A stretch of 1,098 nucleotides of DNA from Naegleria gruberi (lineage: Eukaryota), in the NCBI GenBank assembly GCA_000004985.1, contig GG739563.1; one strand, 5' to 3'. The first letter of the stretch is position 1; every line of letters begins with the position of its first letter. Below, one piece after another: positions 1 to 1,098 of the stretch. A program made the position numbers and the translations under genes. The notes below the pieces were generated by a model that worked only from the letters and a program-made list of their open reading frames with translations, searched no databases and was not told where the DNA came from.

Positions 1-20
1 GTTCCAAAATTTTTTCCAGG

Positions 21-74
21 CCTCCTAAAAAAAATACGAAATTGTTTATATGACACAACAGGTCCATAAGTCAC
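21..74 (-). promoter_or_regulatory. Possible minus-strand promoter plus RBS for a gene running leftward off the window
   Basis: On the minus strand, AGGAGG (reverse complement of 21-26) is a consensus Shine-Dalgarno sequence. A -10-like TATAAA (reverse complement of 45-50) lies 18 bp below a -35-like GTGACT (reverse complement of 69-74). No ATG lies within the window; the only candidate start is TTG (reverse complement of 5-7), 13 nt after the SD. Confidence 0.25.
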
Positions 75-117
75 CCTAAAAAAGTCGTGAAAAATGAATA
101 CCCCTGTTGTGTCATAT
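48..117. repeat. Perfect 15-bp inverted repeat ATATGACACAACAGG ... CCTGTTGTGTCATAT with a 40-nt spacer
   Basis: 48-62 is the exact reverse complement of 103-117. It is followed by TTTT (118-120). Candidate operator, cruciform or structured-RNA stem. Confidence 0.7.
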
Positions 118-131
118 TTTGATATTTATTT

Positions 132-191
132 TCGCCTGAATCGCAAGTTACGAAGTAAATGACAACTCCCGAACGGCTGCGATTCAGACGA
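132..191. repeat. Long imperfect inverted repeat or hairpin: inverted half-motif GCCTGAATCGC (134-144) pairs with GCGATTCAG of the 18-mer at 179-187
   Basis: Stem is 132-145 against 178-191, 13 of 14 positions paired (10 contiguous, 136-145 with 178-187), around a 32-nt loop. The reverse complement of 134-144 is gcgattcaggc, identical to 557-567. Confidence 0.6.
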
Positions 192-196
192 TTCCG
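163..196 (+). repeat. 34-bp motif CAACTCCCGAACGGCTGCGATTCAGACGRTTCCG, copy 1 (lies outside the 373-bp repeat)
   Basis: Identical to 461-494 and 834-867 except A191 against G489/G862. Confidence 0.9.
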
Positions 197-258
197 ATGT
201 ACGAACTACTTCTCAACAGTTCCGAAAATAGACAACCATGAAGTCAGAGACCCGAAGT

Positions 259-285
259 GCATGTTTTTGGGTTTTTGAAACATGC
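259..285. repeat. Inverted repeat GCATGTTT ... AAACATGC (8 bp, 11-nt spacer) at the left boundary of the tandem repeat
   Basis: 259-266 is the reverse complement of 278-285. At the unit1/unit2 junction the half-sites are adjacent, forming the palindrome ATGTTTgAAACAT at 644-656. Confidence 0.55.
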
Positions 286-326
286 TCAAAAATCAATTTC
301 TATAAAATAAAATCTTTACAAAAGGT

Positions 327-353
327 TATATAGATAATAGATAGATATATATT
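327..353. repeat. Simple-sequence tract (TATAGATAATAGATAGATATATAT) inside a block that is about 80 bp and over 85% AT; a second copy lies at 700-726
   Basis: ATAGA recurs at 330, 337 and 341. The flanking sequence 288-365 is almost entirely A/T. Confidence 0.7.
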
Positions 354-368
354 CATAAAAATCATTGT

Positions 369-395
369 CAACTTTTGAACGGCTGGGTTCTAGCC
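369..395 (+). repeat. Diverged relative of the 34-bp motif (CAACTtttGAACGGCTGgGtTCtAGcc); a second copy lies at 742-768
   Basis: Shares the core CAACTYYYGAACGGCTG (14 of 17 positions) with 163/461/834. The downstream half resembles CGATTCAG with a 1-nt indel. Confidence 0.6.
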
Positions 396-400
396 ATTTT

Positions 401-409
401 TGATATAAT
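401..409 (+). promoter_or_regulatory. Extended -10 element TGaTATAAT (perfect TGnTATAAT); a second copy lies at 774-782
   Basis: Exact match to the extended -10 consensus. No good -35 upstream, which extended -10 promoters can tolerate. The sequence context is AT-rich, so chance matches are possible. Confidence 0.4.
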
Positions 410-415
410 AGTTAT

Positions 416-443
416 TTGACTATACAATGATATATAATAATAT
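416..443 (+). promoter_or_regulatory. Alternative sigma-A-like promoter: TTGACT (416-421), 16-bp spacer, TAATAT (438-443); a second copy lies at 789-816
   Basis: 5 of 6 match at -35, 4 of 6 at -10 with the key A2 and T6 present. Predicted transcription start near 450. Confidence 0.3.
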
Positions 444-460
444 CAATTTTTTGAGGTACC

Positions 461-494
461 CAACTCCCGAACGGCTGCGATTCAGACGGTTCCG
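461..494 (+). repeat. 34-bp motif copy 2 (inside repeat unit 1)
   Basis: 33/34 identity with 163-196. Contains the 18-mer GCGATTCAGACGGTTCCG at 477-494. Confidence 0.9.
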
Positions 495-548
495 TAATTG
501 CATAATCAATGAATGTATCGCGTAGCTAACGTTTTCACAAATAGAAGT

Positions 549-557
549 GAAGGAGGG
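549..557 (+). promoter_or_regulatory. Shine-Dalgarno-like GAAGGAGGG with no substantial ORF downstream; a second copy lies at 922-930
   Basis: Core AGGAGG at 551-556. The only in-frame start nearby overlaps the SD itself: GTG at 547-549 in unit 1 and ATG at 920-922 in unit 2. It opens a 10-codon ORF, MKEGDSGDSD, that ends at TAA 577-579 (950-952 in unit 2). Confidence 0.35.
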
Positions 558-574
558 CGATTCAGGCGATTCCG
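557..574 (+). promoter_or_regulatory. 18-bp element of two tandem 9-mers GCGATTCAG-GCGATTCCG (candidate protein-binding direct-repeat site or iteron); a second copy lies at 930-947
   Basis: Same 18-mer architecture as 179-196 (GCGATTCAG-ACGATTCCG) and 477-494/850-867 (GCGATTCAG-ACGGTTCCG). The 9-bp internal period holds in every copy. Confidence 0.45.
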
Positions 575-617
575 ATTAAGAGACCGGTGTCCATAGATTT
601 AATTTGATTATAAATAT

Positions 618-643
618 AGTGACTTTCGGAATTCACTTTTTTT
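618..643 (+). terminator. Weak intrinsic-terminator-like hairpin plus T7 run at the end of repeat unit 1; a second copy lies at 991-1016
   Basis: AGTGA (618-622) pairs with TCACT (633-637) around a 10-nt loop, followed by TTTTTTT (637-643). The stem is only 5 bp with 2 GC pairs, so terminator strength is doubtful. Confidence 0.3.
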
Positions 644-833
644 ATGTTTGAAACATGCTCAAAAATCAATTTCTATAAAATAAAATCTTTACAAAAGGTT
701 ATATAGATAATAGATAGATATATATTCATAAAAATCATTGTCAACTTTTGAACGGCTGGGTTCTAGCCATTTTTGATATAATAGTTATTTGACTATACAA
801 TGATATATAATAATATCAATTTTTTGAGGTACC

Positions 834-867
834 CAACTCCCGAACGGCTGCGATTCAGACGGTTCCG
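834..867 (+). repeat. 34-bp motif copy 3 (inside repeat unit 2)
   Basis: Identical to 461-494 (+373). Confidence 0.9.
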
Positions 868-909
868 TAATTGCATAATCAATGAATGTATCGCGTAGCT
901 AACGTTTTC

Positions 910-920
910 AAAAAAAAAAA
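910..920. repeat. A11 homopolymer tract, present only in repeat unit 2
   Basis: Unit 1 has acaaatagaagt at the homologous position 537-548. Four point differences, all to A, separate the two copies. Confidence 0.9.
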
Positions 921-1020
921 TGAAGGAGGGCGATTCAGGCGATTCCGATTAAGAGACCGGTGTCCATAGATTTAATTTGATTATAAATATAGTGACTTTC
1001 GGAATTCACTTTTTTTACAT

Positions 1021-1038
1021 TCGATTTAGACGATTTAA
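1021..1038 (+). promoter_or_regulatory. Degenerate sixth copy of the 18-mer (TCGATTTAG-ACGATTTAA), 6 bp upstream of TATAAT at 1045-1050
   Basis: CGATT at 1022 and 1031 keeps the 9-bp phasing. The same 6-bp gap separates the 18-mer at 477-494 from the -10-like CATAAT at 501-506 (and 850-867 from 874-879). Confidence 0.35.
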
Positions 1039-1044
1039 TGGTAG

Positions 1045-1050
1045 TATAAT
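1045..1050 (+). promoter_or_regulatory. TATAAT -10 hexamer upstream of the terminal ORF
   Basis: Consensus -10 hexamer. The -35 region (1021-1027) matches poorly and is occupied by the degenerate 18-mer. ATG lies 18 nt downstream. Confidence 0.35.
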
Positions 1051-1068
1051 TGAGTATACAGGTCTATT

Positions 1069-1098
1069 ATGAAGAATATATTGGGTAGAAACGGGTTA
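1069..1098 (+). CDS. Possible 5' end of an ORF (MKNILGRNGL...), truncated by the window edge
   Basis: ATG at 1069-1071 with a weak AGG (1060-1062) 6 nt upstream. Only 10 codons are visible, so the product cannot be assigned. Confidence 0.25.
   Translation, partial: MKNILGRNGL

What the first reader, a model, noticed from the sequence alone, without database searches (positions are those of the whole stretch)
288..450. AT-rich block with simple-sequence repeats next to the motif array: resembles a replication-origin layout (unwinding element plus iteron-like sites)
Each unit contains about 80 bp at over 85% AT (288-365) with ATAGAT/GATA-type and ATAAA repeats, and a second AT-rich block at 397-450. 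The repeated 18-mer/34-mer sites follow, and the ~1 kb shows no coding capacity. Plasmid theta origins and phage origins often pair an AT-rich DNA unwinding element with direct repeats bound by a Rep protein. A duplicated origin module could also explain the perfect tandem repeat, as an origin-amplification or incompatibility determinant. Against this, the sites are irregularly spaced rather than at a helical-repeat period, and no DnaA-box consensus (TTATCCACA) was seen.
Basis: inference. Interest (0 to 1): 0.5.

Follow-up and report, generated by a model that had tools for sequence, protein, structure and literature searches.

The report
Spacer module of Naegleria rDNA plasmid
The AT-rich block and repeated motifs lie in the non-coding spacer of the circular ribosomal-DNA plasmid of a Naegleria gruberi-type amoeba, just upstream of the rRNA genes; this known region holds the plasmid's control elements, possibly including its single replication origin, but it is not a bacterial-style origin.

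Summary
Window 288-365 is 85.9% AT and 397-450 is 87.0% AT, with ATAG/GATA and ATAAA repeats. The 18/34-mers are far beyond chance. Nothing codes. The tandem repeat is 373 bp x2 with 6 differences, so it is not perfect.

The window is eukaryotic. It matches at 99.3% a complete 13,799-bp circle carrying one 18S-5.8S-28S cistron. That circle's spacer ORFs cluster with Naegleria gruberi NEG-M and EGB rDNA-plasmid (CERE) proteins. The window lies in the non-ribosomal sequence (NRS), on the rRNA-sense strand, 1.15-2.25 kb upstream of 18S and about 0.25-1.35 kb upstream of the inferred pre-rRNA start.

The 373-bp unit is present once or twice in natural variants. The core of the 34-mer (AACTYYYGAACGGCTG...) recurs, mostly in sense orientation, in the same spacer zone of two other Naegleria lineages.

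The AT blocks are only the second-ranked predicted unwinding sites. The strongest site lies in the middle of the NRS.

The literature reports 34-bp to 371-bp NRS repeats and a single theta-type origin in a 2.1-kb NRS fragment. I could not obtain that fragment's coordinates.

Verdict: this is a known plasmid spacer control region. An origin role of the Tetrahymena 5'-NTS type is plausible but unproven. A bacterial iteron/Rep model is wrong.

The parts
1..1098 (+). Segment of the non-ribosomal sequence (NRS, intergenic spacer) of a Naegleria gruberi-type circular rDNA plasmid. It is on the rRNA-sense strand, at -2245 to -1148 relative to the 18S 5' end.
   Evidence: 99.27% identical over all 1098 nt to L003 13017-14114. 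L003 repeats with a period of 13,799 bp and carries SSU 1463-3482, 5.8S 3516-3660 and LSU 3808-7263, with the next SSU at 15262. The spacer ORF cluster includes N. gruberi BAF74738.1 and AUH25139.1.
274..646 (+). Spacer unit, copy 1 (373 bp).
   Evidence: TRF reports period 373, 2.0 copies, 98% matches. Variants L002, L007 and L010 carry a single copy.
647..1019 (+). Spacer unit, copy 2 (373 bp). It differs from copy 1 at 6 positions.
   Evidence: Two copies are also present in L003 and L004.
288..365 (.). AT-rich block 1 (85.9% AT, with an (ATAG)n microsatellite and ATAAA repeats). Predicted secondary stress-induced unwinding site.
   Evidence: The SIDD-type model gives opening probability 0.22-0.52 at sigma -0.05 to -0.06 for L003 13303-13384.
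661..738 (.). AT-rich block 1, second copy.
   Evidence: Identical sequence. Opening probability 0.25-0.60 for L003 13646-13758.
397..450 (.). AT-rich block 2 (87.0% AT).
770..823 (.). AT-rich block 2, second copy.
163..196 (+). 34-mer, variant 1: CAACTCCCGAACGGCTGCGATTCAGACGATTCCG (conserved core plus 18-mer).
   Evidence: PWM score 40 bits against a shuffle maximum of about 15.
461..494 (+). 34-mer, variant 1, in unit 1.
834..867 (+). 34-mer, variant 1, in unit 2.
369..402 (+). 34-mer, variant 2: CAACTTTTGAACGGCTGGGTTCTAGCCATTTTTG (GGCT...AGCC mini-palindrome followed by a T run). It directly follows AT block 1.
   Evidence: An almost identical element occurs in the N. andersoni-type plasmid at L013 5703.
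742..775 (+). 34-mer, variant 2, in unit 2.
557..574 (+). 18-mer-only copy: GCGATTCAGGCGATTCCG.
930..947 (+). 18-mer-only copy in unit 2.
1022..1035 (+). Degenerate 18-mer core (CGATTTAGACGATT) just after the last unit.
   Evidence: family D3.
132..145 (-). Partial inverted copy of the 18-mer core.
   Evidence: I6-I8.

Best explanation
Identity (near certain, about 0.97). The window is non-coding spacer (NRS) of a Naegleria gruberi-type circular extrachromosomal rDNA element (CERE). This is a roughly 14-kb nuclear plasmid carrying one 18S-5.8S-28S cistron. The flagged region lies on the rRNA-sense strand, 1.15-2.25 kb upstream of 18S. It is about 0.25-1.35 kb upstream of the point where a GC-rich block conserved across lineages begins, which I infer to be the pre-rRNA (5' ETS) start. 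The AT blocks and the 18/34-mers belong to a 373-bp spacer unit that natural variants carry once or twice.

Function (inferred, about 0.4-0.45). The unit is a cis-acting control module. The 28-34-bp element AACTYYYGAACGGCTG(G/C)G.TT..AG.C is a duplex binding site for a spacer-binding protein, and the AT tracts next to it are easily melted, probably nucleosome-poor DNA. I think the most likely role is the promoter-proximal replication-initiation and fork-control zone of the plasmid. It would work as Domains 1 and 2 of the Tetrahymena rDNA 5' non-transcribed spacer do: host ORC-type initiation at AT-rich DNA positioned by repeated, same-orientation elements of about 33 nt, with no plasmid-encoded Rep protein. 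Such elements can also serve Pol I transcription, so the two roles may overlap. The duplication arose by slippage or unequal exchange at T runs and is dispensable.
For: Identity:
- The window matches the complete circle L003 at 99.3%.
- Rfam places a full eukaryotic rDNA cistron on that circle. In variant L002 it also finds a GIR1 branching ribozyme next to a His-Cys box homing endonuclease.
- The spacer ORFs cluster with N. gruberi NEG-M and EGB CERE proteins. The intron endonuclease is closest to Naegleria species.
- The published EGB CERE description matches: 34-bp to 371-bp NRS repeats, an endonuclease-like pseudogene after 28S and an ORF before 18S. My BLAST hits show the same 34-nt and 371-nt repeats.

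Function:
- The CERE has a single origin in the NRS and replicates in theta mode, according to papers citing Mullican 2019.
- The AT block is the least stable 50-bp stretch of the plasmid and a predicted stress-opening site. A site at about -1.5 to -1.7 kb recurs in 3 of 4 lineages.
- The motif has 5 sense copies in L003. It recurs 7-8 and about 9 times, mostly in sense orientation, at -1.2 to -3 kb in the L013 and L015 plasmids, scoring 20-40 bits against a shuffle maximum of about 15. Its core is the best-shared 14-mer among the upstream regions.
- The 34-mers do not fold better than shuffles, so they are probably duplex sites.
- Precedents: the Tetrahymena origins sit in a tandem 430-bp duplication with type I elements about 0.7 and 1.1 kb upstream of the rRNA start. 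The main origin of the Entamoeba rDNA circle is promoter-proximal and upstream.
- The inferred ETS start is AGTTCATCGACCCCCCC, conserved in three lineages, with unalignable sequence upstream of it.
Against: - The strongest predicted unwinding site is elsewhere, in mid-NRS at L003 9542-9702 (5.6 kb upstream of 18S). Mid-NRS sites also dominate in L013, L015 and L016.
- I could not obtain the coordinates of the 2.1-kb origin fragment or of the 636-bp 'origin' fragment used in vectors.
- The motif is not detected in two more distant lineages, L016 and L018.
- The region is 97-100% identical between close variants, but much of the rest of the NRS is also 90-99% identical, so this does not single it out.
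- There is no yeast ACS match.
- Orientation bias and position just upstream of the promoter fit Pol I terminator or enhancer elements equally well.
- The transcription start is inferred, not mapped.
Confidence: 0.45

Rival explanations
1. The module has only a Pol I upstream-control role, and the origin lies elsewhere, for example at the mid-NRS unwinding site. The sense-oriented 28-34-bp elements would bind a Myb-like terminator factor of the TTF-I/Reb1 type. The core contains AACGG. Together with the T/AT-rich tracts upstream of them, they would stop Pol I that has read round the circle or started in the spacer, would act as polar fork barriers, and would keep the promoter region open. Alternatively the 373-bp unit acts as an enhancer or spacer-promoter repeat.
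For: - The module lies 0.25-1.35 kb upstream of the inferred pre-rRNA start.
- All strong motif copies in the window are in the sense orientation. Most copies in L013 and L015 are too.
- 6 of 16 motif copies have a run of 5 or more T within 35 nt upstream, against a background of about 18%. This is the arrangement of Pol I terminators (T-rich release element upstream of the bound factor; established knowledge of the yeast Reb1 and mouse Sal-box systems).
- Copy number of the unit varies between variants, as with rDNA spacer subrepeats. NRS repeat-number variation is also reported in N. australiensis.
- The strongest unwinding site is elsewhere.
Against: - No motif copy lies within 3.4 kb downstream of the 28S 3' end, where primary terminators normally sit.
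- The unit has no copy of the conserved sequence at the inferred start site, so it is not a spacer-promoter duplicate.
- The T-run enrichment is weak.
- GAACGG departs from the canonical Myb site YAACGG.
- One or two units is few for an enhancer array.
- No transcript mapping is available.
Confidence: 0.35
2. The region is neutral spacer DNA. The AT tracts, the microsatellite, the 34-mers and the 373-bp duplication would be products of slippage and unequal exchange in a repeat-prone spacer, with no sequence-specific function.
For: - Published work describes the NRS as repeat-laden and poorly conserved between species.
- The duplication is polymorphic, and its junction lies in T runs.
- Other AT blocks of similar stability exist in the NRS.
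- The motif is absent from L016 and L018.
Against: - The motif core recurs in multiple copies in three lineages whose flanking sequences are not alignable, with an orientation bias and a similar distance from 18S. Neutral repeats are not expected to persist in this way.
Confidence: 0.15
3. The region is a bacterial plasmid or phage theta origin, with iterons bound by a Rep initiator next to a DNA unwinding element.
For: Only the superficial layout: an AT block next to direct repeats.
Against: - The replicon is a eukaryotic nuclear rDNA circle.
- The only domain-bearing ORFs I found are homing-endonuclease-like, and there is no rep or par gene.
- There is no match in 50,697 phage or 72,556 plasmid records, nor for the 26-mer motif in 185,579 bacterial and archaeal genomes.
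- Site spacings of 80-298 bp are not helically phased.
- There is no DnaA box.
Confidence: 0.01

Closest known systems
[quoted passage not shown]
   Same: - A circle of about 14 kb with one rDNA cistron.
- The same repeat families: 34 bp and 371 bp reported for EGB, and 34-nt and 371-nt BLAST repeats here.
- An endonuclease-like ORF after 28S and an 'ORF' before 18S that fall in the same 90% protein clusters as the N. gruberi entries.
- Contigs carrying the EGB-type ORFs (L007, L010) are 99% identical to the window.
   Different: - I could not read AB298288 or MG699123 directly, so which strain the window comes from is not established.
- The best-matching full circle (L003, 13,799 bp) has an endonuclease-like ORF only about 81% identical to the cluster representative P0002, whose sequence carries the N. 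gruberi EGB accession AUH25140.1.
- The unit copy number (1 or 2) and the presence of the 18S intron differ between variants.
Tetrahymena thermophila rDNA minichromosome origin (5' NTS Domains 1 and 2 with type I elements)
   Same: - Extrachromosomal rDNA, with the control region in the spacer upstream of the rRNA promoter.
- A tandem duplication of about 400 bp (430 bp there, 373 bp here).
- Each copy has AT-rich DNA and a repeated, same-orientation element of about 33 nt.
- The elements lie about 0.7 and 1.1 kb upstream of the transcription start. Here the motif copies lie about 0.4-1.2 kb upstream of the inferred start.
   Different: - There is no sequence similarity.
- The Tetrahymena elements are A/T-rich strands bound by an ORC that contains 26T RNA. 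The Naegleria element is GC-containing (GAACGGCTG core).
- Origin activity is shown experimentally there and not here.
- The duplication here is polymorphic.
- The Tetrahymena molecule is a linear palindrome, not a circle.
Entamoeba histolytica rDNA episome, upstream intergenic-spacer origin
   Same: A circular nuclear rDNA plasmid with a repeat-filled spacer. In growing cells the preferred origin maps upstream, close to the rRNA promoter.
   Different: Entamoeba circles use several origins depending on conditions, whereas a single origin is reported for N. gruberi. The repeats are unrelated in sequence.
Pol I terminator and replication-fork-barrier sites (mouse Sal box/TTF-I, yeast Reb1/Nsi1, Xenopus T3)
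   Same: Short (about 18 bp) polar sites repeated in one orientation in the rDNA spacer, including a copy just upstream of the promoter, often preceded by a T-rich tract and bound by Myb-like proteins (established knowledge). Here the sites are sense-oriented, the core contains AACGG, and there is a weak association with T runs.
   Different: There are no copies near the 28S 3' end. The sequences are unrelated. No binding or termination data exist.
Iteron-type bacterial plasmid origins (for example pSC101, R6K, P1)
   Same: An AT-rich tract next to direct repeats, and theta replication of a circular plasmid.
   Different: The host and initiation machinery are eukaryotic. There is no Rep gene, no DnaA box and no helical phasing, and the repeats are 28-34 bp at irregular spacings of 80-300 bp.

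Membership tests
Naegleria CERE (circular extrachromosomal rDNA element), non-ribosomal sequence | The sequence lies on a circular molecule of about 11-16 kb that carries a single 18S-5.8S-28S cistron. | tested here: met
   L003 repeats with a period of exactly 13,799 bp, and L004 has a 127-nt terminal overlap. There is one SSU, one 5.8S and one LSU per period.
Naegleria CERE (circular extrachromosomal rDNA element), non-ribosomal sequence | Naegleria origin of the molecule. | tested here: met
   The spacer ORF clusters contain N. gruberi BAF74738.1, AUH25139.1 and AUH25140.1. The 18S intron has a GIR1 ribozyme plus a His-Cys box endonuclease 82-89% identical to Naegleria endonucleases.
Naegleria CERE (circular extrachromosomal rDNA element), non-ribosomal sequence | Position outside the rDNA cistron, non-coding and repeat-rich. 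| tested here: met
   The window corresponds to L003 13017-14114, between the LSU end (7263) and the next SSU start (15262). The longest ORF is 39 aa. The 34-nt and 371-nt repeats match those reported for EGB.
Eukaryotic rDNA spacer origin of the Tetrahymena 5' NTS type | Location in the spacer upstream of the Pol I start. | tested here: met
   The window is 1,148 bp upstream of 18S and about 250 bp upstream of the conserved GC-rich block taken as the 5' ETS start. The start site is inferred, not mapped.
Eukaryotic rDNA spacer origin of the Tetrahymena 5' NTS type | Repeated, same-orientation elements of about 30 nt that are conserved between related species while the flanks diverge. | tested here: met
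   The AACTYYYGAACGGCTG... element occurs in L003, L013 and L015, mostly in sense orientation. It is absent from L016 and L018.
Eukaryotic rDNA spacer origin of the Tetrahymena 5' NTS type | An easily unwound AT-rich region at the site. | tested here: inconclusive
   The site is the least stable 50-bp stretch and a predicted opening site (p 0.2-0.6). However, it ranks second to a mid-NRS site with p about 1.0.
Eukaryotic rDNA spacer origin of the Tetrahymena 5' NTS type | Initiation bubbles or ORC binding mapped to the element. | not testable with these tools
   This needs 2D gels, nascent-strand mapping or ChIP. The published mapping (Mullican 2019) is not in the held library.
Yeast-type ARS | A match to the 11-bp ARS consensus WTTTAYRTTTW. 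| tested here: not met
   There is no exact match in L002 or L003. The window has only 1-mismatch matches, at chance level. The two exact matches in the EGB-type contigs lie elsewhere.
Bacterial or phage iteron-type theta origin | A neighbouring rep (initiator) gene on a prokaryotic replicon. | tested here: not met
   The replicon is a eukaryotic rDNA circle. The only domain-bearing ORFs are homing-endonuclease-like. There are no phage, plasmid or prokaryote-genome matches.
Bacterial or phage iteron-type theta origin | Iterons of 17-22 bp in helical phase, and DnaA boxes. | tested here: not met
   Spacings are 80-298 bp. There is no DnaA box even with 1 mismatch.
Pol I terminator / fork-barrier sites | Polar (single-orientation) repeated factor sites in the rDNA spacer. 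| tested here: met
   5 of 5 18-mers in the window and 6 of 6 in L002 are on the rRNA-sense strand.
Pol I terminator / fork-barrier sites | Copies immediately downstream of the 28S 3' end. | tested here: not met
   The nearest copy (L003 10699) is 3.4 kb past the LSU end at 7263.
Pol I terminator / fork-barrier sites | Binding by a Myb-like factor, with transcript 3' ends or fork arrest at the site. | not testable with these tools
   This needs gel-shift, ChIP, run-on and 2D-gel assays.
rDNA spacer promoter / enhancer repeats | The repeat unit carries a copy of the gene promoter or start-site sequence. | tested here: not met
   The conserved boundary sequence TCATCGACCCCCC is absent from the window. 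Only a degenerate 14-nt motif copy is shared with the unique DNA after the last unit.

The most novel reading that the evidence does not exclude
The 28-34-bp element AACTYYYGAACGGCTG..., with its adjoining AT tract, is the sequence-specific replicator of the Naegleria rDNA plasmid, or the recognition site of its key spacer factor. That would be a defined, factor-positioned origin in a deep-branching eukaryote (Heterolobosea), functionally parallel to Tetrahymena type I elements but unrelated in sequence. A fragment of about 400 bp would then suffice to build stable episomal vectors for Naegleria.
Probability: 0.2. Interest if true: 0.6.

Novelty: already known. Interest (0 to 1): 0.3.

Why it matters
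The object itself is known. The Naegleria gruberi rDNA plasmid has been sequenced, and its 34-bp to 371-bp spacer repeats and single spacer origin have been reported.

Two questions remain open in the literature I could read. One is which spacer sequences form the origin. The other is which sequences control Pol I. [quoted passage not shown]

This analysis narrows the candidates to two zones. One is this promoter-proximal module, with a motif conserved across three lineages. The other is a stronger mid-spacer unwinding site. The analysis also points to a likely pre-rRNA start. If the module proves to be the replicator, it would help vector design for a genus that includes a lethal human pathogen.

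Tried and rejected
- BLAST of the window against the phage and plasmid collections found nothing.
- A 26-mer scan of the bacterial and archaeal genomes found nothing.
- An 18-mer scan of the viral contigs gave one high-GC chance hit inside a coding region, L001. I discarded it.
- Rfam on the window gave only a chance-level hit (E = 1.7) to a Salmonella sRNA model. There are no tRNAs.
- The bacterial promoter and terminator scan gave near-chance counts. It is irrelevant for a eukaryotic Pol I spacer.
- Exact look-up of 8 window ORFs found none in the protein collection.
- I tested whether sparse ORFs in L002 reflect an alternative genetic code. They do not; the contig is rDNA plus spacer.
- I looked for the 18S 5' exon at the low-coordinate end of L002 and did not find it. 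Mapping L002 onto L003 puts L002 position 1 next to the 18S start, and its other end falls in the 5' part of the S516 intron. I infer that the assembly broke at the borders of the missing exon.
- I tried to get the mapped origin coordinates. Mullican 2019, Nguyen 2021 and Clark & Cross 1987 are not held. The vector sequences with the 636-bp 'origin' fragment are truncated in the stored supplement. Further literature searches gave no coordinates.
- I tested a fixed motif-to-ATAG distance as a sign of spacer-promoter duplication. By my own count on the sequence the offsets are 49, 64, 59 and 55 nt. They are inconsistent, so I dropped the idea.
- The 34-mers as hairpins: they fold no better than shuffles.
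- Conservation between close variants as a functional footprint: not discriminating, because most of the NRS is 85-99% identical.
- I considered Logan contig 5' ends (L011, L012) as possible transcript starts. L011 starts exactly 30 nt before the end of the unit, which I attribute to an assembly break at the repeat (assuming a k-mer of about 31), not to a transcription start.
Full report
1. What is in the window.

The 1098-nt window is 67% AT. It contains a 373-bp unit repeated twice in tandem, at 274-646 and 647-1019, with 98% matches. The two units differ at only six positions.

Each unit holds two AT-rich blocks. The first is 78 nt at 85.9% AT (288-365 and 661-738) and includes an (ATAG)n run and ATAAA repeats. 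The second is 54 nt at 87.0% AT (397-450 and 770-823). A 78-nt stretch this AT-rich appears in only 15 of 2000 shuffles of the window.

A 34-mer family has seven members. Its 18-mer part, GCGATTCAGRCGRTTCCG, occurs five times, always on the + strand, with none expected by chance. No ORF exceeds 39 aa. There is no DnaA box, no tRNA and no credible Rfam match.

2. Where it comes from.

Nothing similar exists in the phage or plasmid collections. The 26-mer motif is absent from the prokaryotic genome set. A metagenome scan with that 26-mer found contig L002 (VFQN01005947.1, 14.4 kb), which matches the window at 99% but carries only one copy of the unit.

L002 is almost free of long ORFs under any genetic code. 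Rfam shows why. It carries a eukaryotic LSU, 5.8S and SSU rRNA cistron, with a GIR1 branching ribozyme next to a His-Cys box homing endonuclease. This combination is the mark of the Naegleria-type twin-ribozyme 18S intron.

Through the endonuclease-like spacer ORF I retrieved L003 and L004. L003 contains the whole window at 99.27% identity, including the duplication, and repeats itself with a period of exactly 13,799 bp. L004 has a 127-nt terminal overlap. The molecule is therefore a 13.8-kb circle with one rDNA cistron: SSU 1463-3482, 5.8S 3516-3660 and LSU 3808-7263.

The two spacer 'ORFs' fall in 90%-identity clusters with GenBank proteins BAF74738.1, AUH25139.1 and AUH25140.1 of the N. gruberi NEG-M and EGB rDNA plasmids. 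The intron endonuclease is 82-89% identical to Naegleria endonucleases.

The published description of the EGB plasmid fits point by point. It is 14,007 bp with an 8.2-kb non-ribosomal sequence (NRS) holding repeats 'from 34 bp to 371 bp'. It has an endonuclease-like pseudogene after 28S and an ORF before 18S. My own BLAST hits show the same 34-nt and 371-nt repeats. The window is thus NRS of a Naegleria gruberi-type CERE. It is on the rRNA-sense strand, at -2245 to -1148 relative to the 18S 5' end.

3. Local anatomy and comparison with relatives.

Directly upstream of 18S, every Naegleria plasmid I could fetch has a 0.5-1 kb block of 55-75% GC, followed upstream by AT-rich spacer. These plasmids are L003, L007, L013 (N. 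andersoni-type endonuclease), L015, L016 and L018.

In L003, L013 and L015 the GC-rich block starts with the same sequence, AGTTCATCGACCCCCCC. Upstream of it the three lineages cannot be aligned. I take this boundary (L003 about 14366, -896 from 18S) as the start of the pre-rRNA or very close to it. This is an inference; no transcript mapping was available. On that scale the window spans about -1350 to -250, and the two copies of AT block 1 lie at about -1060 and -690.

The GenBank 'hypothetical protein' upstream of 18S sits inside this GC-rich block. I think it is more likely a stop-free stretch of external transcribed spacer than a real gene.

The unit is single in L002, L007 and L010 and double in the window, L003 and L004. 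The duplication is therefore a natural copy-number polymorphism. Its junction lies in T runs.

The 5' half of the 34-mer is the conserved part. The element AACTYYYGAACGGCTG(G/C)G.TT..AG.C scores 35-40 bits at five sense-strand sites in L003. It scores 20-35 bits at seven to eight sites in L013 and at about nine sites in L015. These sites are mostly in sense orientation, at -1.2 to -3 kb. Shuffled sequences reach about 15 bits. Its core is also the best-shared 14-mer among all the upstream regions. It is not found in L016 or L018.

The 34-mers do not fold better than shuffles as single strands, so a duplex protein-binding site is the simplest reading. In the window each strong copy directly follows an AT block: 369 follows 288-365, and 461 follows 397-450. 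The best L015 copy is likewise preceded by an AT-rich tract.

4. Is the AT block an unwinding element?

By nearest-neighbour stability, the block at window 288-365 (L002 1510-1587) falls inside the least stable 50-bp stretch of the whole contig and inside the second least stable stretch at 80-100 bp.

I also ran a mean-field version of the stress-induced duplex destabilisation model, using Benham's parameters, on complete circles. The dominant opening site in L003 is mid-NRS, at 9542-9702, with p about 1.0. The two copies of the flagged block come second, with p 0.22-0.25 at sigma -0.05 and 0.52-0.60 at sigma -0.06.

In L013, L015 and L016 the strongest sites are also mid-NRS, at -4.1 to -7.1 kb. 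A secondary site at about -1.5 to -1.7 kb recurs in L003, L013 and L016 but not in L015. The block is therefore a real candidate, conserved in position in three of four lineages, but it is not the best unwinding candidate on the plasmid.

5. What is known about replication of this plasmid.

Papers in the held library state that the N. gruberi CERE has a single origin in the NRS. It was mapped to a 2.1-kb fragment, and replication is of the theta type (Mullican 2019, as cited). A 636-bp fragment 'known to contain the origin' has been used in vectors. [quoted passage not shown]

I could not obtain the primary paper. The vector sequences are truncated in the stored supplement. The coordinates therefore remain unknown to me.

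The two yeast ARS consensus matches reported for EGB probably correspond to the antisense matches in the EGB-type contigs, in and near the endonuclease-like ORF. They are absent from L002 and L003 and occur at chance frequency.

6. Explanation and rivals.

A bacterial iteron/Rep origin is excluded by the context. Three readings remain.

(a) A promoter-proximal origin and fork-control zone, as in Tetrahymena. There the two origins lie in a tandem 430-bp duplication with type I elements of about 33 nt, 0.7 and 1.1 kb upstream of the rRNA start. A second parallel is Entamoeba rDNA circles, whose main origin is promoter-proximal and upstream.

(b) Pol I upstream control only. This means polar terminator or barrier sites of the TTF-I/Reb1 kind, or enhancer repeats. 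It is supported by orientation, position and a weak T-run association (6 of 16 copies against 18% background). It is weakened by the lack of copies near the 28S end and by the lack of promoter similarity in the unit.

(c) Neutral spacer repeats. This is weakened by the recurrence of the motif across lineages.

I put (a) at about 0.4-0.45, (b) at about 0.35 and (c) at about 0.15. Readings (a) and (b) need not exclude each other. The identity of the region is near certain.

7. Novelty and verdict.

The molecule, its repeat families and the existence of a spacer origin are published, so this is already known. What this analysis adds:
- the placement of the flagged module relative to the inferred pre-rRNA start;
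- the polymorphism of the duplication;
- a motif core shared by three lineages;
- the finding that the strongest predicted unwinding site lies elsewhere.

As I recall its abstract, the Nguyen 2021 review already discusses cluster-level conservation of origin structures and the likely promoter and termination sites. That paper is not held, so parts of these additions may not be new either. Interest is modest.

Noticed in passing
window 48-62 / 103-117 (L003 13064-13133): A perfect 15-bp inverted repeat (ATATGACACAACAGG / CCTGTTGTGTCATAT) with a 40-nt spacer. As single-stranded DNA it folds at -14.1 kcal/mol, z = -5.4. The left-arm sequence TTTATATGACACAACA recurs at L003 9468-9496 and 11388-11416, but without the right arm. 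Function unknown.
   Followed up: partly
L003 9542-9702 (L002 about 5216-5375): The strongest predicted stress-induced unwinding site of the whole plasmid (p about 1.0). It is an 82-88% AT stretch in mid-NRS, 2.3 kb past the 28S end. Mid-NRS sites also dominate in L013, L015 and L016. This is an alternative candidate for the mapped origin.
   Followed up: partly
L003 about 14366 (-896 from 18S); L013 -980; L015 -766: The sequence AGTTCATCGACCCCCCC(G/A)AAATGTCTGA... marks an abrupt switch from unalignable AT-rich spacer to a conserved GC-rich block in three lineages. It is probably the pre-rRNA start or the 5' end of the external transcribed spacer.
   Followed up: partly
L003 736-1272 and 14535-15071; L002 184-858: The 'hypothetical protein' annotated upstream of 18S in N. 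gruberi plasmids (BAF74738.1, AUH25139.1) lies inside the 55-73% GC block that I take to be the 5' ETS. That block contains a CCAACCAGCC-type microsatellite and is stop-free on both strands. It has no Pfam hit and no homologues outside its own cluster. It is probably not a gene.
   Followed up: partly
window 538-547 vs 911-920: Four of the six differences between the two units turn CACAAATAGAAG into a run of 11 A (CAAAAAAAAAAA) in unit 2. This is a local homopolymer expansion just upstream of the 18-mer-only copy.
   Followed up: no
L002 13282-14434: Variant L002 carries the 18S twin-ribozyme group I intron, with GIR1 at 14046-14242 and a His-Cys box endonuclease ORF at 13318-14085. L003 and L007 lack it. 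L002 position 1 lies next to the 18S start, and its other end falls in the 5' part of the intron.
   Followed up: partly
L003 7861-8916; L002 6344-7501: An intact-looking 351-355-aa ORF with a homing-endonuclease zinc-loop domain (PF05551) lies in the spacer about 0.6 kb past the 28S end. It is only about 81% identical to the N. gruberi EGB version, which its authors called a likely pseudogene.
   Followed up: partly
L003 9268-10870 vs 11188-13000: The NRS contains a dispersed duplication of about 1.6-2 kb (copies 1.87-2.14 kb apart, 81-100% identical in blocks). It carries degenerate 18-mer copies (GCGATTCAGAGGATTCTC) at 10699, 12617 and 12837.
   Followed up: no
L013 (NCBI GCA_013558295.1, contig JACCDN010942333.1): A complete Naegleria rDNA plasmid of about 14.0 kb (127-nt terminal overlap), with an N. 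andersoni-type intron endonuclease, sits as a separate contig in an NCBI genome assembly. I did not identify that assembly's organism. The contig may be a contaminant or a co-sequenced amoeba.
   Followed up: no
L005 1168 and 2878; L007 10784 (antisense): Exact yeast ARS-consensus matches occur only in the EGB-type contigs, in and near the endonuclease-like ORF, and on the antisense strand, as reported for EGB. They are absent from L002 and L003. They are probably chance matches.
   Followed up: yes
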